In this document: positions 1,200 to 11,489 of the stretch, piece after piece | How the letters are laid out: each line of letters begins with the position of its first letter | Position numbering within the stretch: the first letter of the stretch is position 1 | NCBI GenBank assembly: GCA_964388035.1 | Contig: CAYLZE010000139.1 | Location: forward strand, 1-11,489 | Source: an uncultured archaeon | Lineage (GTDB): Archaea; Asgardarchaeota; Lokiarchaeia; Sigyniarchaeales; SOKP01 | Length of the DNA stretch: 11,489 bases | Direction: 5' to 3' | Notes under the pieces: model-generated | What the model was told of the DNA's origin: nothing | What the model saw: the letters and a program-made list of their open reading frames with translations, nothing else | Databases searched by the model: none | Made by a program: the position numbers and the translations under genes

Positions 1200-1215
1200 A
1201 TTATAAATTATTTAG

Positions 1216-1311
1216 TTTTTAAGATATTATATTAATTTTTTATACTTGAAATTGTTGACTCCTGGTTTTAAGGTCCCTGTCAAATAAAAAAAAAAATAGA
1301 AATAAAAGAAA
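1216..1311. terminator. Probable bidirectional oligo-T terminator region between convergent genes
   Basis: 121-bp gap between stops at 1199 (+) and 1321 (-). T-runs on + at 1216-1220 and 1236-1241. An A11 run at 1286-1296 inside an A-rich tract reads as T11 on the - strand about 25 nt after the operon's last stop. No GC-rich hairpin, consistent with archaeal-type termination. Confidence 0.45.
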
Positions 1312-1320
1312 GTTAATCGC

Positions 1321-3363
1321 TTAACTATTTAGAGCTTTTTCATGAGCTTTTGCATTTAATGGCAATAAGGGAGCACAAGCCATTAGCTTGGTCACATCCC
1401 CCTCAATAACATAGGTTCCTGCCATAGTAGCTTCAATAGGATTAGATTCTCCAGAATTCACTTTCTTAATGGTCTCAAAATTAGTTTTATGTAAGATTTT
1501 CGGGACTTCAGGTCCAGAATACTCTCCCATCCCCCATTTCATTGAATCTTTTTCGATTTTTTGCCAATAATCCATCTCTGGTCTATCGCTAATCTTGTAT
1601 TGAAATACCAGAGGAGCAACTGGTTCTAACATCGACTTCAAATCTGGCAGCTCATTATAAGCTTTCATGAAGCGTGTAAGATACGCTTCCCATTCTTCTT
1701 TAGTGTTCATTTTAGACATCACATCTTCTTGTTTTTTATTATTTTCTTTTATTTTTATAGGTTCAAGTTTCAAACCTTGGTTTTCAGCCTTTTTATTAAT
1801 TAAATTAGTTCCATATGGTAATGATTTTATAGATTTAATTTCCGCCTCGCTTATATAGAGCGAGGGATCAATACCTTTTTCAATGCAAAAATCAAGGAAA
1901 TCATGCTTAAAAGGCTGAGGAACTAATTGAAACGTTATTGAGATAATCAAATCCTTAGTAACGACTCTCATGTTATTTTTCTCTGCTGTTCTTTCAGCAG
2001 TAAATCCAATTCCTTTTTTTGCAGCGAGGTGCATGCTTTCGGGGACAATTATCATGGTTTCTTCAAGGAATTTTTCTGCATCAGAATCCCATTGAATTCC
2101 AAAATAGGAATCGCTTTCTGCTTTCTTAATGGGAGGTTCTAATTGTCTTTTTTCTTTGGGAAGATACATTTCTCCCCTATTTAAATAATCGTAGAGAAAA
2201 GCCATGTAATTTCGATAGGACTGATTACTTGCTCCCGAAGGAACGAAATACGCTTTATCAGCGAATTGATCGCAATAGTGACATGTTATCCCGCAGATTT
2301 CTGCACATTTCTGTCCTTTATAGGGAAGATTTTCGATAAAATCTTCTAGCTCCCCACTCTTGAGCTGGGCATTAAAATCAGGGACGCTTAACAAGATGCT
2401 TTGATTATCTGCATCCACACCCATTTTTTTCTCTCTAATAGAAAATTCCGAGAATTGATTTCCCGCCAGTTCCAAGGGATCTGAAACAAAAGAATACCCA
2501 TTAAAAATTTCACCTATATTACCCTCGTGAAATTTTCTACTATAGGCGGTTAATGCTCGATACAACCAATCAGTACCATATCGTCGTCCTGAGATTTTAA
2601 AATAATCAATCCCAATATCGATGTATTTATCTATATCTGAAGGTTGAATCCATTTGCACATGATTATTTGGGAGGGATCGAGTGCTTTTTGATTTTGACA
2701 AGCAATGGTTGCCCAATCATTGTAATATCCTTCTAATTTATCATGGGTTTGACTTGCATGCGAGCATTCCGTATAATGAAAGAATCGAAATGGACATTCA
2801 TTTAAGCAACAATCATTCGTTAATAATTCTATATCACATTTTATTTTCTCTCTAATCTCCTTGAGTAGGGGAAAATTTCGATTTAACATTATAGATAAAG
2901 TAATAACTCCCTCCCGTCCCACTATTTCCTCCCATTCTAAAGCTCTTGAGAGGGAATTCACTTCAGATATGACCGAAACTTTCAATTTTAATTTTGGATG
3001 GTAAATTTTTGCAAAGTTCGCTAAATATGGATCCGTTACTGTTAAATATTCAACATTTAAATCTTCTAACCAATCTAATTCTTTGAGTGCTAAAGCTTGT
3101 TGCTCTTGATTAAACATGTAAAAACCTAAACACATGCCATTCCATAACCACGTAAATTTTAACCCCATTTCATGGACTTTATTAATAAAATCTTCAATTT
3201 CGGATTTTTGCCTTTTTGCCATTAAGAAAAATGGTCTGCCTGACCCTGTAAAACTTAGATCAGAGGTTCCATACAAATCATGAACTTTTTCAATTAAACC
3301 TGGTTCTTCTCCGATTTTATTTAATAAATCCATTTTCCAGTTACATGCTAGCGATATTCTCAT
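1321..3363 (-). CDS. U32-family Fe-S protein (putative O2-independent hydroxylase) fused to a PCP_red/DUF2621-like module and a C-terminal SCP2 lipid-binding domain
   Basis: 680 aa. Residues 1 to ~400 carry U32 signatures: LWNGMCLG, VTDPYL, KVSVISEVNS, LNRNFPLL, NDCCLNECPF-x3-H-x4-SH, WIQPSDIDKY, GIDYFKISGR, and a C-terminal CAEICGITCHYC Cys cluster. Residues 423-503 are the shared module (IQWDSDAEKFLEE...VP...AERTAE...VPQPF...GID). Residues ~549-680 are SCP2-like (SGESNPIEATMAGTYVIEGDVTKLM). The start overlaps the upstream stop (ATGA). Confidence 0.85.
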   Translation of the reverse strand: MRISLACNWKMDLLNKIGEEPGLIEKVHDLYGTSDLSFTGSGRPFFLMAKRQKSEIEDFINKVHEMGLKFTWLWNGMCLGFYMFNQEQQALALKELDWLEDLNVEYLTVTDPYLANFAKIYHPKLKLKVSVISEVNSLSRALEWEEIVGREGVITLSIMLNRNFPLLKEIREKIKCDIELLTNDCCLNECPFRFFHYTECSHASQTHDKLEGYYNDWATIACQNQKALDPSQIIMCKWIQPSDIDKYIDIGIDYFKISGRRYGTDWLYRALTAYSRKFHEGNIGEIFNGYSFVSDPLELAGNQFSEFSIREKKMGVDADNQSILLSVPDFNAQLKSGELEDFIENLPYKGQKCAEICGITCHYCDQFADKAYFVPSGASNQSYRNYMAFLYDYLNRGEMYLPKEKRQLEPPIKKAESDSYFGIQWDSDAEKFLEETMIIVPESMHLAAKKGIGFTAERTAEKNNMRVVTKDLIISITFQLVPQPFKHDFLDFCIEKGIDPSLYISEAEIKSIKSLPYGTNLINKKAENQGLKLEPIKIKENNKKQEDVMSKMNTKEEWEAYLTRFMKAYNELPDLKSMLEPVAPLVFQYKISDRPEMDYWQKIEKDSMKWGMGEYSGPEVPKILHKTNFETIKKVNSGESNPIEATMAGTYVIEGDVTKLMACAPLLPLNAKAHEKALNS
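1855..2097 (-). repeat. Shared ~80-aa module, copy 1 (internal, between U32 and SCP2)
   Basis: IQWDSDAEKFLEETMIIVPESMHLAAKKGIGFTAERTAEKNNMRVVTKDLIISITFQLVPQPFKHDFLDFCIEKGIDPSLY; W3, P19, A34, P60, F63, G75, D77, Y81 in register with the other copies. Confidence 0.8.
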
Positions 3364-4517
3364 TTTTCCTTTTTTCCTACTCCTTTTTGAATTTCGCCTA
3401 TTTTTTTATTTATCAAAGTAAGCATTCTTTCTTTTTGATTTGGATCCTTAACTATTATCTTTTTATTGAAATCACTACAGTATTGACTTATTTGCTCCTC
3501 GAAGGGAAAAGGAGCATTATATGGAAAATCATGACAGAAATCTTTAACATTTAAAGAATTGAACTCGTAAATTGACGCATTCATCGTATTTGGATCCCAA
3601 TAATCTCCGTAAGGAGTAGGAATCCGAATATAATCGAATAAATTGAGATCTGTGGATTTCTCCATGTAAGATTTCAAGATATTCATGATTTTCGAAACTG
3701 ATAATTGATATGTGGAGAAAAAGAAATAATTAAAGCCTAGATTTTCATATTCAATAATATTCCAAGGAGAAACCCAACCACCTTTTAAAAAGCTAACAGG
3801 TTTCTCAATTCGCTGCTTCCAACAATTTAATAGGGAATAATCATAACCATCTTGAACATCTGATACATTCATTTGATCCCAAAAGATAGGTGAATTAATT
3901 GTTCTATGACTTTGTAAATTATGATGTTGATACCAATAGATACACCCCCAATTACACCCAATATTTAAGGGGATTATAAAATCCAACGATTTTCCGTTGT
4001 TTGACTGAGCTTTCATCTTCATGAAATTTTTGAGAGAGTTAAAAGATCTAATAATATCGGGGTGGAGAATAATAGAATGTGCACCAATGTTTGAAAAAAT
4101 TCTTGCTCGATTCATTGATGTAATATATTGGGAATATGATACGTAGATCTTCGCTCCTTGATACTGTTCCTTAAAAAACCCAACATTATTGGGAGATGAT
4201 AGTAAAATTTCGGAATATCCTATTGTTTTTAATGATTGTAAGAGTTGCATTGTAGCTTTATTATGTTCCGAATGAGCTTCAAGATTACCTTGGCAAGTAG
4301 AGTCCAAACCGGCTATAGGTATAATGCCCATTTCCTGAATAACTTTTGTATATTCTTCAAATTCTGAAAAAGAGTACTGCTTAAAAGGCAGGAAAATCGA
4401 ACTATTTCCAATCGGGGTATTAGGGACGTGAACTACCACGTGACTAACTGGTATCTTCTTTTCTTGAATTTTATAGATTAAATCTTTATTATAATTTCCT
4501 TCGAGTACAAATTTCAT
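3360..4517 (-). CDS. Divergent U32-family protein (probable partner subunit of the adjacent U32 enzyme)
   Basis: I place the start at ATG 4517 (MKFVLEG, 385 aa), with GAGGA at 4531-4535, rather than 4622, which would overlap the upstream gene. It is colinear with the 680-aa U32: LDSTCQGN, IILHPDIIRSF, NIGCNWGCIYWYQHHNLQSH (same N-x-x-C-x3-C-x5-H-x4-SH), LLNCW, WVSPWNIIEY. It lacks the KISGR motif and most of the C-terminal Cys cluster. Confidence 0.75.
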   Translation of the reverse strand: MKFVLEGNYNKDLIYKIQEKKIPVSHVVVHVPNTPIGNSSIFLPFKQYSFSEFEEYTKVIQEMGIIPIAGLDSTCQGNLEAHSEHNKATMQLLQSLKTIGYSEILLSSPNNVGFFKEQYQGAKIYVSYSQYITSMNRARIFSNIGAHSIILHPDIIRSFNSLKNFMKMKAQSNNGKSLDFIIPLNIGCNWGCIYWYQHHNLQSHRTINSPIFWDQMNVSDVQDGYDYSLLNCWKQRIEKPVSFLKGGWVSPWNIIEYENLGFNYFFFSTYQLSVSKIMNILKSYMEKSTDLNLFDYIRIPTPYGDYWDPNTMNASIYEFNSLNVKDFCHDFPYNAPFPFEEQISQYCSDFNKKIIVKDPNQKERMLTLINKKIGEIQKGVGKKEK

Positions 4518-4560
4518 ACTTATACTAAAATCCTCATTTTTAATTAAAAATAAAAAAAAA

Positions 4561-5733
4561 TTATTTATAGGAGTTAATTCCCGCTTGAGCCCCCATGAGA
4601 AGGAAATCCACCATTGTTCCATTGTAATCGTTCTCTATCTTATAGTAGATTCCTTTAGGAGCAAAGGTAACTCCATATATGAACTTATGAATTTCACTTT
4701 GAAAGGGGGAGGTATCCACGAATTTTTTAATAAGCGGATGAAGTTCTGTAGGCACCTCATCAGCATTTTGACATGTTATGCCAAAACAAATCCTTTCAAC
4801 CTTATTTGAATCCCAACTAAAGGTATAATTTAGATGAGCAGCTTGAGCACATTTTTCCATGATTTCATCAGAAAGTAAGGTAAATCCTAAATCACTAACT
4901 AATCCTTTACAAGCATCTAATGTGTTGTTTTCCGGATTGCTGAGCATGAAATAGATATTAGTGGTTTTATTGGAAAAATCGAATGCAAAAAGACTAAAAA
5001 TATCTAATCCATGTTTTTTAAAATAATTACTATAATTTTGAACACTTTTAGGATAATATTTCATCGAAAATATCGGATCGATGGTTCCTGGTACCACAAA
5101 AGGCCATATTTTGGATAACCCTATTCGAGTATCTAAATCAATTCCGTATCCCATGATTTGAAATGTATTTATCGCTTCTTTTATCGCATCATGAATTATA
5201 TGACCGTCATTTTGAATAAGCCCTTTCTCAATCGCTGTAGTATATGCATCAGGATCATGCATTTGCATTAATTCTACATATCGTATCGAAACATCTCTTT
5301 TTTCCACTGGTTTAGTAGTAGTACGGATAGATATGGAAGAACCCGTGAAAAATTGTTTATAGGCTTCCAAAACTTGCCATATTGCCTCTTTATCGTTGCT
5401 AACACCAACCATACTGCATATTTGTATGGTATCCTCCACCATTCGTTCGAGATTATTATTGCATTTGAAATCTCCCTTTACTTTTGCTAAATATCTATTA
5501 TAATCTACTCCTAGATCCTTTAAATCTTGAATCATAGTAGGCTGAAAAGCGGGGGGAGTAACTTCAAATAATGCTGCTACTAAATCCACTTCTGAAACTT
5601 CCGTTCCTTTCCTCTCCGCGCATTTCTTCTCTGCACCACCAGCCAATGCTGGTCTTATGATCGGTCGAACAGTTTCTGGTATTCTATTGACCGCTTTTTC
5701 ATAAAGATTTCTAACATCTTCATTCCATTTCAT
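4561..5733 (-). CDS. Soluble aromatic prenyltransferase, ABBA/PT-barrel family (NphB/CloQ/PTase_Orf2-like), with an N-terminal PCP_red/DUF2621-like module
   Basis: 390 aa. Residues ~92-390 match the NphB-type motif order recalled from memory: GIDLD..GLSKIWPF (cf. AIDGE..GFKKTYAFF), FKKHGLD (FARYGLD), DFSNKTTNIYF (DYKKRQVNLYF), LVSDLG (LVRELG), TFSWDSNKVERICFG (TLNWETGKIDRLCFA), IYGVTFAPKGIYYKIENDY (VYGLTLSPKEEYYKLGAYY). Residues 1-81 are the shared module. Confidence 0.88.
   Translation of the reverse strand: MKWNEDVRNLYEKAVNRIPETVRPIIRPALAGGAEKKCAERKGTEVSEVDLVAALFEVTPPAFQPTMIQDLKDLGVDYNRYLAKVKGDFKCNNNLERMVEDTIQICSMVGVSNDKEAIWQVLEAYKQFFTGSSISIRTTTKPVEKRDVSIRYVELMQMHDPDAYTTAIEKGLIQNDGHIIHDAIKEAINTFQIMGYGIDLDTRIGLSKIWPFVVPGTIDPIFSMKYYPKSVQNYSNYFKKHGLDIFSLFAFDFSNKTTNIYFMLSNPENNTLDACKGLVSDLGFTLLSDEIMEKCAQAAHLNYTFSWDSNKVERICFGITCQNADEVPTELHPLIKKFVDTSPFQSEIHKFIYGVTFAPKGIYYKIENDYNGTMVDFLLMGAQAGINSYK
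5491..5733 (-). repeat. Shared ~80-aa module, copy 2 (N-terminal on the prenyltransferase)
   Basis: MKWNEDVRNLYEKAVNRIPETVRPIIRPALAGGAEKKCAERKGTEVSEVDLVAALFEVTPPAFQPTMIQDLKDLGVDYNRY. Confidence 0.9.
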
Positions 5734-5800
5734 TTTTTAAACCTATTTAAATCCTATTACTTTTTGGTTATTTTATTCAATTTTTATGTATATTCTCATT

Positions 5801-7216
5801 TTATGTCTGATATTTTGCAAATTGAATATTACTCAATTCCGCAAAACCATCGGGATTGTTTATCCCTAATCCAGGTGCCATCCACCGGGTATTAATGGAA
5901 CAATATTCTCTAATTACCTTAAAAAGTTCAGGTTCTTTGATATTTGGGGATATATAGAATTTTGGTCTTAGTAGATTTTGGTTTTCTTGTATTATGCCCT
6001 CTTGTTCTGCTAATAACTGAAGTTGGGTGTGAGGATAAATTCGTAAGCCAATAAAAAGCAGTACATCCCCATCACCTTGCCATGCTCTTGCTTTATAACT
6101 CTCGATAGTTTGTAATGAATCGAGAGAAGTGCGGACAGTCTCTAAGGTTTCTTGCGGTCCACCCACTATCATGTGAATTAATTGTTCTATCTCGAGCTCA
6201 AAGCATTTCTCAGACGTAAGGATTGCATCTTCGCTTAATCGATCTTTTTGCATGTATTGAAGCATTTCATTTGACAATGATTCCATTCCCGTTGCCAAGT
6301 GTATTGCCCCACTTTGTTTCATTAACGGCATTATATCAAGAAAATTTTTATCCGGAACATAATTTGCTCCCCAATTTAAATCAAGATCTTTCTTTACTAT
6401 TTCTTGACATAAACTTTTAATATATTCACGATTTAAATTAAAGACACTATCAACAAAAAAAACATTTTTTATTCCATAATTATTTATCAATGAATCTATT
6501 TCTTCTACAACTTTTTTCTGAGATCTATATCTTACATTTGAGCCCTCGATATATCTGTAACTGCAATAAATGCAGTGTTTAGGACACCCTCGTTTTGTTT
6601 GGATATTGCCCCAAACTTCCCCATTTTTATCTAAAGGGTTAATCAAATATGCTTTATTATCAATTAGTTCTCGAGCGGGGTTTGGTAAATCATCCAAGTT
6701 ATTCACTCGCCAAGGAGGCTTCTCATGATAATTTCCCTTGGAATCTAAATAACAAATTCCCTTTTCTAATTTTCGAATATCTTCGCCATTTTCTATTTTT
6801 TTTAAGATTTCAGCAAACACATATTCCCCATCGCCGATAACACCGTAATTATGATTAAGATCTTTTAAAATTTCTTCGGAAAAAATTGAAAATCCCGCTC
6901 CTCCGAGAATAATGGGAATTTCTGGCTCAGCAATTTCCTTAATGTACTGAATTACATTTCGAGCTGGTAAATAAAAAAATAAATTTCCAGGATATGTTGT
7001 TGAATCTATATTACGTAAGGTAATTCCAATGACATGTGGGCTAAAATTTTCAATAGCTCTTGAAATATCATTTCTCGAATCATTACTATTTGTTAAATCC
7101 AGTATTTTAACTTGATGACCTTGACTAAGTAAATAAGAGGCAATATATGCTTCTCCTAATGGGGGTGCCATGACATGAATTAACTCTCTACTCACTGAAA
7201 TCATTAATGCTCGCAT
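5801..7216 (-). CDS. Cobalamin-binding radical SAM protein (class B; probable C-methyltransferase)
   Basis: Likely start is ATG 7216 (MRALMIS, 471 aa) with GAGGA 7 nt upstream. N-terminal B12-binding Rossmann motifs: PPLGEAYIASYL, GITLRNIDS, IILGGAGFS, GDGE. Radical SAM core: QTKRGCPKHCIYC (CxxxCxxC), FVDSVFN, GMES, GGPQET, GLRIYPHT, PKFYISP. Confidence 0.9.
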   Translation of the reverse strand: MRALMISVSRELIHVMAPPLGEAYIASYLLSQGHQVKILDLTNSNDSRNDISRAIENFSPHVIGITLRNIDSTTYPGNLFFYLPARNVIQYIKEIAEPEIPIILGGAGFSIFSEEILKDLNHNYGVIGDGEYVFAEILKKIENGEDIRKLEKGICYLDSKGNYHEKPPWRVNNLDDLPNPARELIDNKAYLINPLDKNGEVWGNIQTKRGCPKHCIYCSYRYIEGSNVRYRSQKKVVEEIDSLINNYGIKNVFFVDSVFNLNREYIKSLCQEIVKKDLDLNWGANYVPDKNFLDIMPLMKQSGAIHLATGMESLSNEMLQYMQKDRLSEDAILTSEKCFELEIEQLIHMIVGGPQETLETVRTSLDSLQTIESYKARAWQGDGDVLLFIGLRIYPHTQLQLLAEQEGIIQENQNLLRPKFYISPNIKEPELFKVIREYCSINTRWMAPGLGINNPDGFAELSNIQFAKYQT

Positions 7217-7258
7217 GTTCAAATCCTCGCTATATTTGTAATTTTATTTCAATTTTAA

Positions 7259-8668
7259 CTATTTTTTTTCATTTTCAACAATTTCAATTTTTTTATCTTC
7301 CAATGAATCTTCCATTGGATCATGATCATTTTCATGCCAGCAATAGGGGAACGAAGCGAAAAAGTCTCCCGTTTCACATTCCGTATGAACCCTACAACCT
7401 CCATGACAATATTTTAGATGGTGGCAGGATGCACATTTACCCGTTCTTTTTCCATCTCTGATATCTTTAAAAATTTGAGAATTTAATATATCTTGAAAAT
7501 CGTCCACTAACGCATTGCCTAGAGTCAGTTTTGTAGGATATCCGCAAGGATAAATTGTTCCATCAACACCTATCCCCATCATCGTTCTACAAGCCAAGCA
7601 TCCAACACCCCATTCAATTGCGGTTAATTCTTTATCATCTTTTGGCATTTCCATAAAAGGGGTCATTTCATAAATTTCATATGCAGGAAGAGTTCCTGCT
7701 TCTCCATTTCTAATGGTCTCTATTGCGTGTTTATATTTGAATTTATAGAGTTTTTTATATTCTTCTTGACTAAGCCCAATTTCATTCCAATAGGTAGCTG
7801 CGCGGTTTTGCTTCACAACCGCTCTAAAGTAGGGTTGAGCGCCCCATTCTTCCGATAATGTTTTTAACTCTTCCAATTCATTGATGTTTTGTTTCATAAC
7901 GGTAATTGAACTACACACGAATAGCCCATACTTTAAACAATTTTCTATAGCTCGCTTTGCGTATGTTAATGAATCGGAAAAACCTCGTATCTTATCATTT
8001 TTTTTGGGATCTGCACTATCAAAACTGATAAACACGTGACTCATGTTATACTCCTTGCACATCTTTGCGAACTTATCATCAAATTTAGTACCATTCGTAA
8101 TTATGGCATGGTAATATCCCTTTTCACTGCAAAATTTCATAATATCTCCTATATCTTCTCTTAACGTTGGTTCTCCCCCAAACCAGATAAAGCATGCATG
8201 ACGTCCTTGTTCTCTCAAGCCAGATTCGACATTTTCAATAATTTGACACCATTTTTGGGATGATAATTCTGGTCTTGGTATCATGTCATCAGCAGCACAA
8301 TGCAAACAATTCATGTTACACCGATCGGTTATATACATTGCAAAGTGTATGTTTCCGGGATGAAAAGCTTCTTCTAAGGTGTCCCAAGAACATTCGATTC
8401 GATCTCTAAGCTCTTTTAATTCCATGTATCTTGTCACGTCTATTCCTAGGGAAGTTAAATCATTGACCATCATCGCTTTAAACGCTTCCGGAATAATATC
8501 GAAAATTCCCGTGATCAAATCCCCGTCTTCTATGTACGATCCGTTTCGATTAAGACATCTCTTTTTTGCTGCTTCTACTATTTGGGGTTGTACTGCAGGA
8601 CGAAAACCATCAGGAATTTGGTTTACGATCCTTTCAAATAATTCTTTTGTATCTTTATTCCATTCCAT
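7259..8668 (-). CDS. Radical SAM/SPASM-domain protein (paralog 2) with an N-terminal PCP_red/DUF2621-like module
   Basis: 469 aa. CNMNCLHC (CxxxCxxC), GGEPTLR, TNG, ISFDS. SPASM Cys array GCLACR...IYPC...LGN...KCASC..LKYCHGGCR...PYCW. Residues 1-81 are the shared module. Confidence 0.9.
   Translation of the reverse strand: MEWNKDTKELFERIVNQIPDGFRPAVQPQIVEAAKKRCLNRNGSYIEDGDLITGIFDIIPEAFKAMMVNDLTSLGIDVTRYMELKELRDRIECSWDTLEEAFHPGNIHFAMYITDRCNMNCLHCAADDMIPRPELSSQKWCQIIENVESGLREQGRHACFIWFGGEPTLREDIGDIMKFCSEKGYYHAIITNGTKFDDKFAKMCKEYNMSHVFISFDSADPKKNDKIRGFSDSLTYAKRAIENCLKYGLFVCSSITVMKQNINELEELKTLSEEWGAQPYFRAVVKQNRAATYWNEIGLSQEEYKKLYKFKYKHAIETIRNGEAGTLPAYEIYEMTPFMEMPKDDKELTAIEWGVGCLACRTMMGIGVDGTIYPCGYPTKLTLGNALVDDFQDILNSQIFKDIRDGKRTGKCASCHHLKYCHGGCRVHTECETGDFFASFPYCWHENDHDPMEDSLEDKKIEIVENEKK
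8426..8668 (-). repeat. Shared ~80-aa module, copy 3 (N-terminal on radical SAM paralog 2)
   Basis: MEWNKDTKELFERIVNQIPDGFRPAVQPQIVEAAKKRCLNRNGSYIEDGDLITGIFDIIPEAFKAMMVNDLTSLGIDVTRY. Confidence 0.9.
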
Positions 8669-8681
8669 ATTTTTTCACTCA

Positions 8682-10046
8682 TTAGCAGTTTTCATGAGAA
8701 TGATCATCTTCATGCCAACAAAAGGGAAACGGCGCCAGAAAATCACCCGTTTGATTTTCCGCATGGACTCTGCACCCACCACCGCACATTTCTAAATGAT
8801 GGCATGTTGAACATTTTCCTTTTATTTTTCGATCTCGTATCGCTTTAAACATTTCCGATTCCATGATTTCATCAAAATCTTGCTTAAGCACGTTCCCTAA
8901 GGTTAGGACCGAGGGATAATCACAAGGGAAAAAATCTCCATTTATATCTATACCAGAGACAGATCGACATGCTTGGCATCCGACCCCCCATTCTAAAGCA
9001 GTTCGTTCTTCATCATTAAGTGGGCATTCCATGAACGGAACCATGTCATAAGTGTAGAATTTATTGAGAGATGAAGCCTCCCCTTTTCTAATTGCTTCTA
9101 CCACATTTTTATATTTAAATTCATAAAATGTCTTGTATTCCTCGTGATTAAGTCCTATTTCCTCCCAATTTTTTTCTGCATTTCTTTGCTTAATAACTGC
9201 TCTGAAATATGGTATTACACCCATTGATTCCAATTCATTTTTAATAATTTCTAATTCATCAAAGTTCTCTTGTTCAACCGTTGCTGTACATATGACAAAA
9301 TGCCCATACTTTAGGGCATAATTAATTGCTTGTTCAGCTTTTTCTTTGGCATGGGGTACACCCCTAATTTTTGCAGCTCTTTCTGGAATCGTACTATCGT
9401 AACTGATGAATACATGGCTCATTTTAACCTCAGCACATAGCTTTGCAAGTTCTTCATCAAAAAGCATGCCGTTTGTAGAAATTGCTTGATAATATCCTTT
9501 TTCGCCACAATATTTTATTAAATCTTTTAAGTCCTTGCGTAGGGTGGGCTCTCCACCAAACCAGATATAACACCCGCGTCTCCCGCGCTTTCTTAGCGTT
9601 CCTTCCACATTTTCAATAATTTGAGTCCACTGTTTAGTAGTTAATTCTGGGCGTTTTTCCATTACTTCTGCGGCACAATGAAGACATTTTTGATTACATC
9701 TATCAGTTAGATACATGGTAAAATGATATACTCCTGGTAAAAATGCTCCACCTATTTCATCCCATGTTCGAGCATAATCCTTTCTAATATTGGATAATTG
9801 AATATACCTATCAGTATCAATGTCTAATTTTTTGAGATCCGCTACTACTGTTGGTTGAAATGCTTCTGGTGTTATTTCAAAAAGAGCAGAGAGGATATCA
9901 TCCTTTTCTATAAAACCGGAGTTCCTGAGTCGTGCGGTTTTTTCAGCCGCTTCTCGTAACATGGGTTTTACCGCAGAACGAAAAGCCTCAGGAACTTGAT
10001 CTGTTATTTTTACATATAGATCTTCCATATCTTTTGGCCAATCCAT
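8682..10046 (-). CDS. Radical SAM/SPASM-domain protein (paralog 1) with an N-terminal PCP_red/DUF2621-like module
   Basis: 454 aa. CNQKCLHC, GGEPTLR, STNG, ISYDS. SPASM array GCQACR...FFPC...LGN...KCSTC..LEMCGGGCR...PFCW. Residues 1-81 are the shared module. AGGTGA RBS lies 6 nt upstream of the ATG. Confidence 0.9.
   Translation of the reverse strand: MDWPKDMEDLYVKITDQVPEAFRSAVKPMLREAAEKTARLRNSGFIEKDDILSALFEITPEAFQPTVVADLKKLDIDTDRYIQLSNIRKDYARTWDEIGGAFLPGVYHFTMYLTDRCNQKCLHCAAEVMEKRPELTTKQWTQIIENVEGTLRKRGRRGCYIWFGGEPTLRKDLKDLIKYCGEKGYYQAISTNGMLFDEELAKLCAEVKMSHVFISYDSTIPERAAKIRGVPHAKEKAEQAINYALKYGHFVICTATVEQENFDELEIIKNELESMGVIPYFRAVIKQRNAEKNWEEIGLNHEEYKTFYEFKYKNVVEAIRKGEASSLNKFYTYDMVPFMECPLNDEERTALEWGVGCQACRSVSGIDINGDFFPCDYPSVLTLGNVLKQDFDEIMESEMFKAIRDRKIKGKCSTCHHLEMCGGGCRVHAENQTGDFLAPFPFCWHEDDHSHENC
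9804..10046 (-). repeat. Shared ~80-aa module, copy 4 (N-terminal on radical SAM paralog 1)
   Basis: MDWPKDMEDLYVKITDQVPEAFRSAVKPMLREAAEKTARLRNSGFIEKDDILSALFEITPEAFQPTVVADLKKLDIDTDRY. Confidence 0.9.
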
Positions 10047-10052
10047 ACTTAT

Positions 10053-10058
10053 TCACCT
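10053..10058 (-). promoter_or_regulatory. Shine-Dalgarno-like motif AGGTGA for the 454-aa radical SAM gene
   Basis: The - strand reads ...aaagaAGGTGAataagtATG. GGTGA-type cores are common in archaea. Confidence 0.6.
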
Positions 10059-10102
10059 TCTTTTTAATTTATTTTTCTTTTTGGTTTTCATTTAGTAATT
10101 TT

Positions 10103-10945
10103 TTAATTTTTAACATGGATAAAAAATGGTAAAAATAGTTTATCAGAACAAAAAGTCATTTCATTCCTTTTTTCAGAACAAGTCTTAATAGAGTGAATAT
10201 GGTTATTGGTTATTTTGTAATAAAAGAAGAAGAAAATGCGAGTATTTCCCAAAAATTTAAAAATAGAATGTTTATGAGAAAAAGTATAATAATTACGGGA
10301 TTTTTTAGATGAATCCTTAGAAGTTTTAATGGTTTTAACCCCATAAAAATCCCCATTCCTTTTAAATCTAATAGGAAATTTAGAAATTTCTTCTAGATAT
10401 TGAATTCGAAGTATATCTCGTTCTTTGAAGTAATTTAAGGGTTGAGAAAAATACAAGCCATTCGGACCAATATATTTTAATTCATTCATTGACTCTTGCT
10501 CGAAATTTGACAAATCTAGATCAAAAAGCTCCGGATGATAACCTAAATCGCAATACATTTCGAATTCTCTATAGGATAGGATATATATTTTTACATATTG
10601 GTAAACCAAGGATTCAGCGTGTAATATAATGTCTACAATAATGGTGATATCAATTAAATGCCCAACCGTGAAATTCATAATTTGAAATTCCTTCGGTAAG
10701 AAAAATAGGATATTGATGGTGGGAAGAGATGGAAAGAAAATTGAACTTCCGGAAGATATATAAGCATTGAATGACGATGAAAGAATGGATAAATCTCTCA
10801 GAAACATGTAGAAAAAGACAGCTGGCAGACAAGAAAAAATGAAAATTAGGATGAGAATTATTCTGATTCTATTTGAATTCTTATATCTATTCATCGTTCT
10901 TAAGTATTGTGGTAAATTTATGTCTATACTTTTAAGATTATTCAT
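10103..10945 (-). CDS. Hypothetical membrane-anchored protein
   Basis: 280-aa ORF whose ATG overlaps the upstream stop (ATGAATAA) and which ends 56 bp before the next gene. It has a hydrophobic segment at about residues 28-49 (IRIILILIFIFSCLPAVFFYMF) and a weaker one at about residues 95-115. No family recognised; the C-terminal third looks compositionally odd. Confidence 0.55.
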   Translation of the reverse strand: MNNLKSIDINLPQYLRTMNRYKNSNRIRIILILIFIFSCLPAVFFYMFLRDLSILSSSFNAYISSGSSIFFPSLPTINILFFLPKEFQIMNFTVGHLIDITIIVDIILHAESLVYQYVKIYILSYREFEMYCDLGYHPELFDLDLSNFEQESMNELKYIGPNGLYFSQPLNYFKERDILRIQYLEEISKFPIRFKRNGDFYGVKTIKTSKDSSKKSRNYYTFSHKHSIFKFLGNTRIFFFFYYKITNNHIHSIKTCSEKRNEMTFCSDKLFLPFFIHVKN

Positions 10946-11489
10946 TTAAGAGTCCATATTCTTTAAGGCTTTGTTTCATATCTGCTTGAAAAGGTCCCGG
11001 CGTTCCTTCCAAAAAAGCCATCCTCATATCTTCATTATTTACCTCTTGTCCCCCTCTCTTTTTTGCCTTTTCTTCAGCGAGAGATGAGATTGCCATTCTT
11101 GCCATTGATTGAAATTGGGAAGGCGTTAACTTAATTAATTCATCAAAAATTTTTACCGTTTCTGGATTCCAAGCAAATTTCAGGTTTTTTTGGTCATCTT
11201 GATCTCCAGAATTAATACCGAATTCACGACTAGTAATGATATTTTGAAGATAATTCTGAAGAGATTCTACGTATGCTTTTGATTTTTCCTCATCTACGAC
11301 AACAGCTTTCTTTGCCCATTCTTTGCAATAATTACATTCACCGCACATGGCTATACAATTTTGTTTCTTGAAAAATTCTATAAACCCATCTAATTTAGTA
11401 TTATCAATATACATCTTTGAAACCATCTCTTTCCCAATCGTTGTTCTCAAGTTGAGATTAGGATCTTTCTCTTGAAGTCCCCCAAAAGA
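10938..11489 (-). CDS. 3' part of a U32-family Fe-S protein with a C-terminal PCP_red/DUF2621-like module (truncated by the window edge)
   Basis: The frame stays open from the annotated TTG 11450 to the edge (SFGGLQEKDPNLN..., no stop). YIDNTKLDGFIEFF..CIAMCGECNYC aligns with LKSGELEDFIENL..CAEICGITCHYC at the end of the U32 domain of the 680-aa protein. It is followed by the shared module (FAWNPET...TPSQF...AEEKA...TPGPF...G). Confidence 0.75.
   Translation of the reverse strand, partial: SFGGLQEKDPNLNLRTTIGKEMVSKMYIDNTKLDGFIEFFKKQNCIAMCGECNYCKEWAKKAVVVDEEKSKAYVESLQNYLQNIITSREFGINSGDQDDQKNLKFAWNPETVKIFDELIKLTPSQFQSMARMAISSLAEEKAKKRGGQEVNNEDMRMAFLEGTPGPFQADMKQSLKEYGLLNE
10941..11177 (-). repeat. 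Shared ~80-aa module, copy 5 (C-terminal on the partial U32 protein)
   Basis: FAWNPETVKIFDELIKLTPSQFQSMARMAISSLAEEKAKKRGGQEVNNEDMRMAFLEGTPGPFQADMKQSLKEYGLLNE. Confidence 0.85.

What the first reader, a model, noticed from the sequence alone, without database searches (positions are those of the whole stretch)
1321..11489. Candidate undescribed anaerobic pathway for a prenylated aromatic (quinone-like carrier or meroterpenoid)
Seen: eight co-oriented genes with overlapping stop/start codons (3360-3363, 10938-10945) or gaps of 13-67 bp encode 3 U32 proteins, 1 SCP2 domain, 1 ABBA aromatic prenyltransferase, 1 B12 radical SAM and 2 SPASM radical SAM enzymes. Established: U32 proteins UbiU/UbiV with the SCP2 protein UbiT perform O2-independent hydroxylation of prenylated aromatic intermediates in ubiquinone synthesis; ABBA enzymes prenylate naphthalenes, phenazines and 4-hydroxyphenylpyruvate; class B radical SAM enzymes are mostly C-methylases. 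Inference: the operon provides prenylation, anaerobic hydroxylation, methylation, further radical tailoring (e.g. decarboxylation or cross-linking) and lipid chaperoning. That parallels ubiquinone logic with different parts: a soluble ABBA enzyme instead of UbiA and radical instead of SN2 methylation. I know no described pathway with this combination. The product cannot be determined from sequence.
Basis: partly seen in the sequence, partly recalled or inferred. Interest (0 to 1): 0.88.

Follow-up and report, generated by a model that had tools for sequence, protein, structure and literature searches.

The report
Asgard oxygen-free prenyl-aromatic tailoring operon
This Asgard (Lokiarchaeia-type) archaeon carries a real, conserved and so far undescribed operon that most likely attaches an isoprenoid chain to an aromatic ring and then hydroxylates, methylates and trims the greasy product without oxygen; the product itself is unknown.

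Summary
Window 1321-11489 is one minus-strand operon that ends at an oligo-T run. It encodes three divergent U32 proteins (one fused to SCP2), an ABBA prenyltransferase, a B12 radical SAM enzyme, two SPASM radical SAM enzymes and a conserved small membrane protein.

- **Extent:** the operon runs past the window. Contig C138 overlaps the window end by exactly 55 nt, completes the third U32 and adds a second B12 radical SAM gene.
- **Conservation:** the genes keep the same order in 18 fetched loci. Among 46 species-level loci, a SPASM enzyme lies within 8 kb of the prenyltransferase in 33, SCP2 in 33 and a U32 in 32.
- **Distribution:** patchy, 20 of 68 sampled genomes of the window's own family. 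Reduced forms occur in Thermoplasmata and anaerobic bacteria.
- **Informative bacterial variants:** a Pseudobacteroides cluster adds DAHP synthase, a UbiE-like methyltransferase, HemN-like radical SAMs and four U32s. A Thermoanaerobaculia locus has two P450s where the U32s would be.
- **U32 placement:** the cluster U32s form their own clade, apart from UbiU, UbiV, RlhA and TrhP. They keep four invariant cysteines.
- **Host:** no MenA, MqnA/D or ALAD was found.

The best reading is a small-molecule prenyl-aromatic tailoring pathway, but no chemistry is shown. I found no publication describing it. This scan has already met the same cluster on other Asgard genomes.

The parts
10938..11489 (-). 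C-terminal 183 codons of the third U32-type protein (464 aa when joined to contig C138). It carries a 4-Cys motif (C-x3-C-x2-C-x2-C) and a C-terminal DUF2621-like module (10941-11180).
   Evidence: 57-67% identical to the C-termini of 449-472-aa U32-plus-module proteins in other loci. Exact 55-nt overlap with the end of C138. The N-terminal part on C138 hits PF01136 at E 2.8e-13. The joined protein aligns gap-free to a homologue.
10103..10945 (-). Conserved membrane protein of unknown family (280 aa). The N-terminal ~120 aa are hydrophobic, look like about three membrane helices and are conserved. The tail is AT-rich and variable. The last 18 codons (10103-10159) correspond to a small ORF that is separate in many related loci.
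   Evidence: No Pfam or NCBIfam hit. Homologues of 215-264 aa hold the same position in 14-16 loci. The membrane helices are read from the sequence, not predicted by a tool. Small ORF.
8682..10046 (-). Radical SAM/SPASM enzyme A (454 aa) with an N-terminal module (9795-10046). It has a CX3CX2C motif and a full SPASM CX2CX5CX3C motif.
   Evidence: PF04055 E 3.7e-20 and PF13186 E 8.8e-10. Best NCBIfam matches are AhbD, AhbC and NirJ at 115-129 bits, all far below their cut-offs. Orthologues are 73-88% identical in the fetched loci.
7259..8668 (-). Radical SAM/SPASM enzyme B (469 aa), a paralogue of A (53% identical), with an N-terminal module (8417-8668).
   Evidence: PF04055 E 3.9e-25, PF13186 E 5.2e-10, DUF2621 27.5 bits. 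AhbD 138 bits against a cut-off of 500. Synteny.
5801..7222 (-). Class B (cobalamin-binding) radical SAM enzyme (473 aa), a presumed C-methyltransferase. It has no module.
   Evidence: PF02310 E 6e-15 and PF04055 E 2e-18. Closest families are TIGR04072 (lipid biosynthesis B12/rSAM, 288 bits against cut-off 360) and BzaD (199 bits against 450). An orthologue at 45% identity or more is present in 21 of 46 loci.
4561..5733 (-). ABBA (PT-barrel) aromatic prenyltransferase (390 aa). N-terminal module at 5482-5733, barrel at about 4561-5460.
   Evidence: PF11468 E 8e-50 over profile positions 2-283 of 287. Closest solved relatives are FamD1 (5YNT), AmbP3 and AmbP1 (E about 1e-45), then EpzP-type 4EE6, NphB and CloQ. 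No (N/D)DxxD motif in the sequence. 135 homologues, nearly all from Asgard MAGs.
3360..4517 (-). Divergent U32-like protein, subfamily B (385 aa from the ATG at 4517). It keeps the four invariant Cys and two His but lacks the second 4-Cys site and the module. Its stop overlaps the next gene's start (ATGA).
   Evidence: Pfam U32 only E 0.1, but E 1.5e-25 to a cluster U32 of L003. Cys and His columns are conserved across all three subfamilies. It forms a clade with the other cluster U32s.
1321..3363 (-). Three-domain protein (680 aa): U32-type (beta-alpha)8 barrel with Fe-S Cys motifs (about 2194-3363), DUF2621-like module (1849-2103) and SCP2 lipid-binding domain (1324-1722).
   Evidence: PF01136 E 4e-9. 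AlphaFold2 model pLDDT 76. Foldseek top hit is the U32 protein Mk0906 (5D88, E 4.6e-6) and the SCP2 part best matches UbiJ-SCP2 (6H6P, E 2e-4). SCP2 is matched by 23 of 23 homologous domains. 62 homologues in Asgard MAGs.
1286..1296 (-). Run of 11 T on the coding strand, about 25 nt after the last stop codon. Likely an archaeal oligo-T terminator that ends the operon.
   Evidence: Read directly from the sequence. That oligo-T tracts act as archaeal termination signals is established knowledge and was not tested here.

Best explanation
The operon is an accessory, oxygen-independent biosynthetic pathway for a prenylated aromatic small molecule, that is, a lipid-like meroterpenoid or quinol-type compound. 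No catalytic step below is shown by experiment.

Proposed steps:
1. The soluble ABBA prenyltransferase puts an isoprenoid chain on an aromatic acceptor derived from the shikimate or aromatic amino-acid pool. The family assignment is shown. The acceptor is inferred.
2. The SCP2 domain holds the hydrophobic intermediate, as UbiT and UbiJ do for ubiquinone intermediates. The fold is shown. The role is inferred.
3. The two AhbC/AhbD/NirJ-like SPASM radical SAM enzymes are the genes most tightly linked to the prenyltransferase in every lineage. They carry out radical side-chain chemistry on the prenylated product, for example oxidative decarboxylation or trimming or C-C closure. This would be an anoxic counterpart of CloQ followed by CloR. 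This step is speculative.
4. The three Fe-S U32 proteins hydroxylate the ring without O2, probably with prephenate as the oxygen donor. The translationally coupled 385-aa and 680-aa proteins probably act as a pair like UbiU-UbiV. Inferred by family analogy.
5. The B12 radical SAM enzymes C-methylate unactivated carbons. Inferred.

The shared 84-aa helical module on five of the enzymes most likely docks them to a common partner or to each other around the SCP2-bound substrate. Inferred; not demonstrated.
For: Architecture and conservation:
- Operon layout with overlapping or closely spaced genes and a terminal T-run.
- The same gene set and order in 18 loci. Among 46 species-level loci, SPASM lies within 8 kb in 33, SCP2 in 33 and U32 in 32.
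- PTase next to a module-bearing SPASM enzyme is the pairing that recurs across Asgard, Thermoplasmata and several of the bacterial loci: Clostridia, Aminicenantes, Thermoanaerobaculia and Polyangiaceae.

Family assignments:
- A bona fide ABBA prenyltransferase whose solved relatives all prenylate aromatic small molecules.
- U32 fold and SCP2 fold confirmed. The best SCP2 structural match is UbiJ.
- Four Cys are invariant in all three U32 subfamilies, resembling the UbiV-type CXn...CX3C arrangement (PMC6747719).
- The cluster U32s are separate from the host's three canonical RlhA-like U32s.

Comparative variants:
- The Pseudobacteroides cluster adds DAHP synthase, NUDIX, a UbiE/COQ5-like methyltransferase, two HemN-like radical SAMs, an adenylation-carrier didomain and four U32-module genes.
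- The Thermoanaerobaculia locus has two P450 genes directly after PTase-SPASM and no U32. This fits O2-dependent hydroxylases replacing O2-independent ones.

Host and module:
- The host has chorismate synthase, so aromatic precursors and prephenate are available. Prephenate is the oxygen donor of UbiU/V (PMC10990095).
- The module occurs almost only fused to these enzyme families or to SCP2.
Against: - No activity, acceptor or product is known.
- The Asgard operon itself contains no gene for making an aromatic acceptor or a prenyl diphosphate.
- The cluster U32s are a remote clade. Pairwise E-values to UbiU and UbiV are 0.006 or worse, and the canonical CX6CX15CX3/4C motif is absent. Hydroxylase chemistry is therefore extrapolated.
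- Most characterised SPASM enzymes act on peptides, and some ABBA-fold enzymes prenylate peptides.
- All NCBIfam matches for the radical SAM enzymes fall well below their equivalog cut-offs.
- Neighbours in 4-5 Asgard loci (CDP-alcohol phosphatidyltransferase, GT2, sulfotransferase, LuxE) could instead point to a membrane-lipid product.
- The informative bacterial variants are distant (35-45% identity) and may make a different compound.
Confidence: 0.55

Rival explanations
1. The cluster tailors an isoprenoid membrane lipid or polyprenyl carrier, not an aromatic compound. The PT-barrel enzyme would transfer a prenyl group to a non-aromatic acceptor. The radical SAM, B12 and U32 enzymes would then methylate, cross-link or oxygenate alkyl chains held by SCP2.
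For: - Several SCP2 domains per locus, some fused to radical SAM/SPASM enzymes.
- The B12 radical SAM is closest to the 'lipid biosynthesis' family TIGR04072, with hopanoid methylases also listed.
- CDP-alcohol phosphatidyltransferase, GT2, sulfotransferase and LuxE genes flank the cluster in 4-5 loci.
- A conserved membrane protein is the first gene of the core.
- A separate module, SCP2 and B12 radical SAM cluster occurs next to aldehyde oxidoreductases in another genome.
Against: - All solved relatives of the prenyltransferase use aromatic acceptors.
- All characterised U32 enzymes hydroxylate sp2 ring carbons (established knowledge; PMC6747719, PMC10990095).
- DAHP synthase and a UbiE-like methyltransferase in the bacterial variant point to an aromatic scaffold.
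- The flanking lipid genes are present in only a minority of loci.
Confidence: 0.17
2. It is a RiPP or protein-modifying system. A short peptide, or the tail of the membrane protein, would be cross-linked by the SPASM enzymes, prenylated by the ABBA enzyme, and methylated and hydroxylated. The shared module would act as a new kind of leader-recognition domain.
For: - Paired SPASM radical SAM enzymes are typical peptide maturases, and many RiPP maturase families score against them.
- One small domain fused to several unrelated tailoring enzymes mirrors how RiPP recognition elements are distributed.
- A short ORF with a GGAGG-type ribosome-binding site and an ATG lies 91-115 nt upstream of SPASM A in 9 of 17 loci (10 with the one at -70). 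It either overlaps the membrane protein's stop (ATGA) or is fused in frame, as in the window.
Against: - The short ORFs are 14-40 aa (one of 9 aa was seen by eye), are not conserved in sequence and look like translated AT-rich DNA.
- The window copy has only a weak ribosome-binding site.
- No PqqD-like recognition element, leader peptidase or dedicated exporter is conserved.
- SCP2 and U32 have no known role in RiPP pathways.
- The module is all-helical and does not resemble the RRE fold.
- DAHP synthase, P450s and the methyltransferase in the bacterial variants fit small-molecule chemistry.
Confidence: 0.12
3. It is a catabolic or salvage pathway that anaerobically transforms an environmental aromatic or isoprenoid compound, rather than a biosynthetic one.
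For: - The distribution is patchy and accessory, and restricted to anaerobic sediment lineages.
- Radical SAM and U32 chemistry suits O2-free activation of inert substrates.
- Module-, SCP2- and B12-radical-SAM-containing clusters elsewhere sit beside aldehyde oxidoreductases, an amidohydrolase and cyclases.
Against: - ABBA prenyltransferases are biosynthetic and consume prenyl diphosphates.
- No transporter, CoA-ligase or beta-oxidation genes are conserved in the core.
- A dedicated DAHP synthase in the bacterial variant indicates precursor supply.
Confidence: 0.05

Closest known systems
UbiT/UbiU/UbiV, the O2-independent ubiquinone hydroxylation system of Proteobacteria (PMC6747719; PMC10990095)
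   Same: U32-family Fe-S proteins occur together with an SCP2 lipid-binding protein, encoded side by side in an anaerobe. Two of the U32 genes are translationally coupled, as expected for a heterodimer. The first Cys ligand lies far upstream of a CX3C pair, as in UbiV. The substrate is expected to be a prenylated aromatic.
   Different: The cluster U32s form a separate remote clade with the motif C-x107-C-x3-C-x31-C plus two invariant His. Two of the three carry an extra 4-Cys site. SCP2 is fused to a U32. There is no UbiA, UbiD/X, UbiE or UbiG context in the Asgard operon. Prenylation is by a soluble ABBA enzyme. The host is an archaeon in which no Men or Mqn pathway was found.
CloQ/NovQ plus CloR (aminocoumarin ring A) and NphB/Fur7-type meroterpenoid clusters of actinomycetes
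   Same: A soluble PT-barrel prenyltransferase sits at the core of a tailoring cluster. In the CloQ/CloR case, prenylation of an aryl-pyruvate is followed by oxidative decarboxylations of the side chain.
   Different: Those pathways use O2-dependent oxygenases, and CloQ is only a distant relative (E 1e-9). Here the partner enzymes are radical SAM/SPASM, B12 radical SAM and U32 proteins, all O2-independent. The analogy with CloR is my inference and is untested.
FamD1/FamD2 and AmbP1/AmbP3 (cyanobacterial hapalindole and ambiguine prenyltransferases)
   Same: These are the closest solved sequence relatives of the barrel (E about 1e-45, ~280 aligned residues, conserved GL(S/V)KIW, TN(I/L)YF, ER(I/M)CF and Y(Y/I)KI(E/D) motifs).
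   Different: About 30% identity only. The cyanobacterial enzymes lack the N-terminal module, act on indole isonitriles and sit in aerobic clusters with unrelated partners.
AhbC/AhbD/NirJ (radical SAM/SPASM enzymes of alternative haem and haem d1 synthesis)
   Same: These are the best-scoring curated families for both SPASM enzymes. They are SPASM enzymes that act on small molecules by radical removal or decarboxylation of acetate and propionate side chains.
   Different: Scores are 115-138 bits against cut-offs of 500-650, so these are not orthologues. The host lacks a detectable ALAD gene, so a tetrapyrrole substrate is unlikely. The extra N-terminal module is absent from Ahb and Nir enzymes.
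Pfam DUF2621 (PF11084) and PCP_red (PF08369) small helical domains
   Same: The shared module matches DUF2621 positions ~55-139 (up to 31.8 bits against a cut-off of 27.7). Stand-alone relatives also touch PCP_red. The model weakly resembles the PCP_red structures 2KRU and 2L09 (Z 5.5-6.3).
   Different: Neither family has a known function. Here the domain is fused to U32, SPASM, ABBA, SCP2 and LuxC-rSAM enzymes. The best fold matches are AAA+ lid domains (Z 8.3), which is within the noise range for small helical bundles.

Membership tests
Peptidase U32 superfamily (PF01136) | U32-type (beta-alpha)8 barrel detectable by profile and by fold | tested here: met
   PF01136 E 4e-9 for the 680-aa protein and E 2.8e-13 for the third U32's N-terminal part. 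Foldseek top hit is the U32 protein Mk0906 (5D88), E 4.6e-6, 215 columns. The 385-aa protein is linked only through the other cluster U32s (E 1.5e-25).
Peptidase U32 superfamily (PF01136) | Canonical four-Cys [4Fe-4S] motif CX6CX15CX3/4C (PMC6747719) | tested here: not met
   The cluster proteins instead have an invariant C78...C186-x3-C190...C222 (680-aa numbering) plus H196 and H202 in all 31 sequences of the three subfamilies. This resembles the UbiV exception, where the first Cys lies far upstream. Cluster binding itself was not tested.
UbiU / UbiV orthology (O2-independent ubiquinone hydroxylases) | Groups with UbiU or UbiV in a tree or by best hits | tested here: not met
   Pairwise E-values to UbiU are 0.006 or worse and to UbiV 1.5 or worse. 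The best characterised hit is TrhP, at E 3e-9 to 5e-8 for the third type only. In the quick ML tree all cluster U32s lie on one side of a branch with SH-aLRT 100, away from UbiU, UbiV, RlhA, TrhP and the host's three canonical U32s. Long branches make deeper placement unsafe.
UbiU / UbiV orthology (O2-independent ubiquinone hydroxylases) | Prephenate-dependent hydroxylation of a prenylated aromatic ring | not testable with these tools
   Only context is available: SCP2 fusion, an adjacent prenyltransferase and chorismate synthase in the host.
ABBA (PT-barrel) aromatic prenyltransferases, PF11468 | Full-length PT-barrel match, no (N/D)DxxD motif, conserved diphosphate-binding Lys/Arg/Tyr/Asn positions | tested here: met
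   PF11468 E 8e-50 over positions 2-283 of 287. No DDxxD or NDxxD in the sequence. The K, N/Y, R and Y/K motifs align with FamD1 and are invariant in 17 homologues (K208, N259, Y261, R314, K365, Y370).
ABBA (PT-barrel) aromatic prenyltransferases, PF11468 | Aromatic acceptor substrate | not testable with these tools
   Inferred only from the substrates of the solved relatives.
Radical SAM / SPASM subfamily | CX3CX2C radical SAM motif plus a C-terminal SPASM CX2CX5CX3C motif | tested here: met
   PF04055 and PF13186 are above their cut-offs in both proteins. Both motifs are read directly from the translations.
AhbC / AhbD / NirJ equivalogs | Score above the curated NCBIfam equivalog cut-off | tested here: not met
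   115-138 bits against cut-offs of 500-650. No ALAD gene was found in the 96.7%-complete genome.
Class B (cobalamin-dependent) radical SAM enzymes | N-terminal B12-binding domain plus a radical SAM core | tested here: met
   PF02310 E 6e-15 and PF04055 E 2e-18. Not an equivalog of any named family: TIGR04072 288 bits against cut-off 360, BzaD 199 bits against 450.
SCP2 sterol/lipid carrier domain (PF02036) | Profile match and SCP2 fold | tested here: met
   The window copy scores 20.9 bits, just under the 21.3 cut-off, but 23 of 23 homologous domains match (best E 2e-7). The model matches UbiJ-SCP2 6H6P (E 2e-4, TM 0.66) and AF1534 SCP2. hhalign against E. coli UbiT was not significant.
RiPP biosynthetic gene cluster | Conserved precursor peptide gene next to the maturases | tested here: inconclusive
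   A short ORF behind a GGAGG-type site is present 91-115 nt upstream of SPASM A in 9 of 17 loci (10 with one at -70), but its sequence is not conserved.
RiPP biosynthetic gene cluster | PqqD-like recognition element, leader peptidase or dedicated exporter | tested here: not met
   None was detected in the window proteins or among the families conserved across 18 loci.

The most novel reading that the evidence does not exclude
The operon makes a previously unknown membrane redox lipid, an archaeal, anaerobically built quinol or quinone analogue. This would happen in Lokiarchaeia that lack detectable Men, Mqn and Ubi pathways. The product would be assembled on a soluble SCP2-centred metabolon whose enzymes are held together by a new dedicated docking domain, using a new clade of prephenate-dependent U32 hydroxylases.
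Probability: 0.15. Interest if true: 0.9.

Novelty: new variant of a known kind. Interest (0 to 1): 0.72.

Why it matters
- **Asgard physiology:** Asgard archaea are the closest known prokaryotic relatives of eukaryotes, and their membrane and redox chemistry is almost unexplored. A conserved operon that builds a prenylated, oxygenated aromatic lipid without O2 would add a new metabolite class to them.
- **U32 enzymology:** it would extend prephenate-type U32 hydroxylation beyond ubiquinone and RNA. It would also give enzymologists a new U32 clade with its own Fe-S motif.
- **Prenyltransferases and radical SAM enzymes:** it would show an ABBA prenyltransferase working in archaea and in strict anaerobes. 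It would also give SPASM enzymes that probably act on small molecules.
- **Pathway organisation:** the shared 84-aa module offers a testable model for how soluble enzymes are organised around a lipid carrier.
- **Testability:** the P450-for-U32 swap in an aerobic-capable lineage and the richer Pseudobacteroides cluster provide tractable bacterial systems for finding the product.

Tried and rejected
- **Complex prediction.** The SCP2 domain (A3) was tried with the shared module (A2). The tool gave no verdict, with a score of 0.00 and controls not run. This says nothing either way.
- **Fold of the module.** Foldseek gave only weak histone and RuvBL-lid matches (E 0.04 or worse). VIA-align gave AAA+ lid domains at Z up to 8.3 and PCP_red structures at Z 5.5-6.3. 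All of these lie in the range the tool calls common for small helical bundles. No functional assignment follows.
- **Module profile against PDB sequences.** Nothing better than E 0.24.
- **Tetrapyrrole substrate.** AhbD/NirJ/BchE-like enzymes plus a PCP_red-like module suggested this idea. It is set aside because no ALAD gene was found in the 96.7%-complete genome and all Ahb and Nir matches are far below their cut-offs.
- **SCP2 profile against E. coli UbiT by hhalign.** Not significant.
- **Robust placement of the cluster U32s relative to UbiU, UbiV, RlhA and TrhP.** Only a quick tree finished in time. It separates the cluster clade cleanly, but long branches forbid finer statements.
- **Long multi-repeat hits of the module profile (P0207, P0214, P0301, P0306).** These turned out to be TPR or low-complexity false positives.
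- **Literature searches.** Searches on Asgard or Lokiarchaeota with aromatic or ABBA prenyltransferase, U32, SCP2, SPASM and quinone found no description of this cluster.
- **ORF 10103-10945 as a spurious AT-rich frame.** Considered and rejected because the N-terminal domain is conserved in 14-16 loci.

Full report
**What is in the window**

The window is a whole 11,489-bp contig (C139) of a 5.47-Mb, 96.7%-complete MAG. Apart from a plus-strand bactofilin-like gene (180-1199), everything from 1321 to the right end is one minus-strand gene array.

Gaps between the genes are 56, 13, 36, 67 and 43 nt, with two overlaps (ATGA at 3360-3363 and 8 nt at 10938-10945). A run of 11 T follows about 25 nt after the last stop codon.

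Read 5' to 3', the array encodes:
- the C-terminal part of a U32-type protein;
- a 280-aa membrane protein;
- two paralogous radical SAM/SPASM enzymes;
- a B12-binding radical SAM enzyme;
- an ABBA (PTase_Orf2) prenyltransferase;
- a divergent U32-like protein;
- a 680-aa U32-module-SCP2 fusion.

1. The divergent U32-like gene most likely starts at 4517 (385 aa), because all homologues align from residue 36 and are 381-389 aa long.
2. The right-most ORF is cut by the contig end. Contig C138 ends with the first 299 codons of the same gene (PF01136, E 2.8e-13) and overlaps the reverse complement of the window end by exactly 55 nt. Upstream on C138 lies a second B12 radical SAM gene. Further upstream, beyond a divergently oriented peroxiredoxin (AhpC/TSA) gene, lies an MtbC-like corrinoid protein gene. 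The joined 464-aa protein aligns end to end without gaps, at 74% identity, to a homologue.
3. The 280-aa ORF sits in 28%-GC DNA and looked doubtful. It is nevertheless a conserved membrane protein: its N-terminal ~120 residues recur at the same position in 14-16 loci, while its tail is variable.
4. Five of the proteins share an ~84-aa DUF2621-like helical module. These are both SPASM enzymes, the prenyltransferase, the 680-aa protein and the third U32. In this genome the module occurs only here, apart from one weak hit.

**Whose genome, and is the cluster conserved**

Prenyltransferase homologues at 50-77% identity come almost only from Asgard MAGs, which submitters labelled Loki/Promethearchaeota, Thor, Odin, Hod or Hermod.

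In a GTDB-based sample of 301 genomes of the phylum, the gene was found in 20 of 68 genomes of the window's own family, in one genome of another family, and in none of the others searched. Some genomes hold two or three copies. The cluster is thus accessory and patchy.

Eighteen fetched loci show the same core order: membrane protein, SPASM A, SPASM B, B12 radical SAM, prenyltransferase. The core is followed by one of two arrangements:
- the 385-aa U32-like protein, the 680-aa fusion and the third U32; or
- a stand-alone 130-aa SCP2 plus a ~470-aa U32-module protein.

A scan of one genome per prokaryotic species returned 46 loci. Within 8 kb of the prenyltransferase:

| Feature | Loci (of 46) |
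|---|---|
| SPASM enzyme | 33 |
| SCP2 | 33 |
| U32-type gene | 32 |
| Shared module | 39 |

Most of the exceptions are short contigs or distant bacterial prenyltransferases.

**Variants outside Asgard**

- *Thermoplasmata chromosome.* It has SPASM, a prenyltransferase with the module at its C-terminus, an rSAM-SPASM-SCP2 fusion and a module-SPASM enzyme, but no U32.
- *Anaerobic bacteria.* Adjacent PTase and module-SPASM pairs occur in Clostridia, Aminicenantes, Thermoanaerobaculia and Polyangiaceae MAGs. This pair is the part of the system that recurs across lineages.
- *Pseudobacteroides sp.* The co-oriented array reads: adenylation-carrier didomain, HEAT-like and beta-propeller proteins, a class I methyltransferase that also matches UbiE/COQ5, two HemN-like radical SAMs, four U32-module genes (with a HEAT-repeat gene among them), a B12 radical SAM, SPASM, prenyltransferase, two SPASM, NUDIX, DAHP synthase and a further radical SAM. 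A dedicated DAHP synthase points to a shikimate-derived scaffold, to prephenate supply, or to both. Hydroxylases plus O- and C-methyltransferases plus a prenyltransferase is the logic of quinone or meroterpenoid assembly.
- *Thermoanaerobaculia.* The PTase-SPASM pair is followed by two cytochrome P450 genes, and no U32 was found in the 10-kb locus. This is what one expects if O2-dependent hydroxylases replace O2-independent ones.

These bacterial loci are distant (35-45% identity), so they are supportive rather than decisive.

**The individual enzymes**

*Prenyltransferase.* It is a full-length PT barrel (PF11468, E 8e-50) without a (N/D)DxxD motif. Its closest solved relatives are the cyanobacterial indole-type enzymes FamD1, AmbP3 and AmbP1 (E about 1e-45), followed by a phenazine-type enzyme, NphB and CloQ. 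The diphosphate-binding motif residues are invariant in 17 homologues.

*U32 proteins.* The AlphaFold2 model of the 680-aa protein (pLDDT 76) shows an eight-stranded beta-alpha barrel. Its best PDB match is the U32 protein Mk0906. The C-terminal domain best matches UbiJ-SCP2.

By sequence, the three U32 types are remote from all characterised members. The best hit is TrhP, at E 3e-9 to 5e-8 for the third type only. In a quick tree they and their bacterial counterparts form one clade. That clade is separated by a branch with full support from UbiU, UbiV, RlhA, TrhP and the host's own three canonical RlhA-like U32s. They are therefore neither the known RNA hydroxylases nor UbiU/V orthologues.

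All 31 sequences of the three subfamilies keep C78, C186-x3-C190 and C222, plus H196 and H202 (680-aa numbering). The 680-aa and third types add a second C-x3-C-x2/3-C-x2-C site. Placing the first Cys far upstream of a CX3C pair recalls UbiV's CXnCX12CX3C motif rather than the common CX6CX15CX3/4C (PMC6747719).

*SPASM and B12 enzymes.* Both SPASM enzymes have complete radical SAM and SPASM cysteine motifs. They score best, but far below cut-off, against AhbD, AhbC and NirJ. The B12 radical SAM is nearest to TIGR04072 ('lipid biosynthesis') and to BzaD, an aromatic C-methylase of benzimidazole synthesis, again below cut-off.

*SCP2.* Identity is secure at the family level: 23 of 23 homologous domains match.

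**The shared module**

A model from 63 sequences is confident (pLDDT 91): four helices with two one-residue bridges. Structural matches stay within the range expected for small helical bundles. They include AAA+ lid domains at Z 8.3, histone-like folds, and the PCP_red structures 2KRU and 2L09 at Z 5.5-6.3.

Against 1.84 billion representative proteins, the profile finds only 298 proteins. These are stand-alone 80-100-aa forms and fusions to U32, SPASM, PT-barrel, SCP2 and LuxC-rSAM-SPASM proteins. The module is thus a specific mark of this kind of pathway. A docking role, to SCP2, to the membrane protein or to other modules, is my inference.

**Host context**

| Gene or family | Result in this genome |
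|---|---|
| MqnA/D | not found |
| MenA | not found |
| ALAD | not found |
| UbiD-family | 1 gene |
| UbiA-family | 3 genes |
| Chorismate synthase | present |

The UbiA-family genes are expected for archaeal lipid synthesis. So no known quinone pathway is present to which the operon could be an accessory. De novo tetrapyrrole synthesis is not evident, which argues against a tetrapyrrole substrate and implies corrinoid salvage. Aromatic precursors and prephenate, the oxygen donor of UbiU/V (PMC10990095), are available.

**Interpretation**

The best-supported reading (confidence about 0.55) is an accessory, O2-independent pathway to a prenylated aromatic small molecule.

- Shown: the family and fold assignments, the operon structure and the co-conservation.
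- Inferred: prenylation of an aromatic acceptor, SCP2 chaperoning, U32 hydroxylation, B12-dependent C-methylation and module-mediated assembly.
- Speculative: that the two AhbC/D-like SPASM enzymes trim or decarboxylate the side chain of the prenylated intermediate, as an anoxic counterpart of CloQ followed by CloR.

The rivals are tailoring of a non-aromatic isoprenoid lipid (0.17), a RiPP or protein-modification system (0.12) and a catabolic pathway (0.05).

The lipid reading draws on flanking CDP-alcohol phosphatidyltransferase, GT2, sulfotransferase and LuxE genes in 4-5 loci.

The RiPP reading draws on a short ORF behind a GGAGG-type site 91-115 nt upstream of SPASM A in 9 of 17 loci (10 with one at -70). 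That ORF is either coupled to the membrane protein's stop or fused in frame, as in the window at 10103-10159. Its sequence is not conserved.

**Novelty**

I found no paper describing the cluster. This scan has already met the same cluster on several other Asgard genomes and reached similar readings. I treat those notes as leads only.

The contribution of this window is:
- the contig join;
- the invariant Cys/His signature common to all three U32 subfamilies;
- the phyletic numbers;
- the bacterial variants with DAHP synthase, methyltransferases and P450s.

I class it as a new variant of a known kind: UbiUVT-like, oxygen-free tailoring of a prenylated aromatic, built from different parts, in archaea.

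Noticed in passing
window 10103-10159 (-); L003, L005, L006, L008, L010, L016-L019 upstream of SPASM A: A GGAGG-type ribosome-binding site followed by ATG or TTG starts a short ORF (14-40 aa) 91-115 nt upstream of SPASM A in 9 of 17 loci, 10 with one at -70. It overlaps the membrane protein's stop (ATGA/TAATG) or is fused in frame to it. The peptides are K/I/N/F-rich, several have a Cys near the N-terminus, and they are not conserved in sequence.
   Followed up: partly
window 11435-11489 and L020 (G000:C138) 11471-11525: Contigs C138 and C139 share an exact 55-nt end overlap, typical of a k=55 assembly-graph break, so the operon is split by the assembly. C138 adds the N-terminus of the third U32 and, directly upstream, a Ta0216-type B12 radical SAM gene (TIGR04190, 244 bits). 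Further upstream lie a divergently oriented peroxiredoxin gene and an MtbC-like corrinoid protein gene.
   Followed up: yes
window 180-1199 (+): A 339-aa bactofilin-domain protein (PF04519, E 1.4e-16) with long runs of SG-containing repeats. It is convergent with the operon and probably unrelated to it.
   Followed up: no
L070 (uncultured Thermoanaerobaculia) 783-6530: PTase, then a module-SPASM enzyme, then two cytochrome P450 genes, with no U32 found in the locus. This is a possible aerobic version of the pathway and an easier route to the product.
   Followed up: partly
L063 and L076 (Pseudobacteroides sp., G301:C57): A ~25-kb co-oriented cluster with four U32-module genes, three SPASM enzymes, PTase, a B12 radical SAM, two HemN-like radical SAMs, a UbiE-like methyltransferase, an A-T didomain, NUDIX, DAHP synthase and, at the contig edge, a 2-hydroxyacyl-CoA dehydratase subunit.
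   Followed up: partly
L028 (ENA contig_48439) 7420-12850: In a bacterial contig, LuxE and LuxC are followed by a 949-aa LuxC-module-rSAM-SPASM fusion. This links the module-bearing SPASM enzymes to carboxylate activation and reduction. LuxE genes also flank the Asgard cluster in four loci.
   Followed up: no
L029 (GCA_040752695.1) 3774-23315: A different cluster combines four B12 radical SAM genes, a stand-alone DUF2621 protein, a 1104-aa multi-SCP2/module protein, two aldehyde:ferredoxin oxidoreductases, cupin, amidohydrolase, cyclase and a polyketide-cyclase-like protein. The module plus SCP2 plus radical SAM theme is therefore wider than the prenyltransferase cluster.
   Followed up: no
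L015 = L060 (G297:C17, DATKTP010000017.1): the genome search listed this 2.9-kb contig's genome as 'same class' as the window's archaeon, yet its public title is 'Candidatus Deferrimicrobium sp.', a bacterium. This suggests a mis-binned contig or inconsistent taxonomy.
   Followed up: no
G000 whole genome: No ALAD (tetrapyrrole synthesis) gene was found, although the genome encodes at least two B12-dependent radical SAM enzymes and a corrinoid protein next to this operon. The organism probably depends on scavenged corrinoids.
   Followed up: partly
G000:C111:13789-13977 (+): A weak match of the module profile (E 6.8e-4) lies inside a 599-aa ORF elsewhere in the genome. It was not examined.
   Followed up: no
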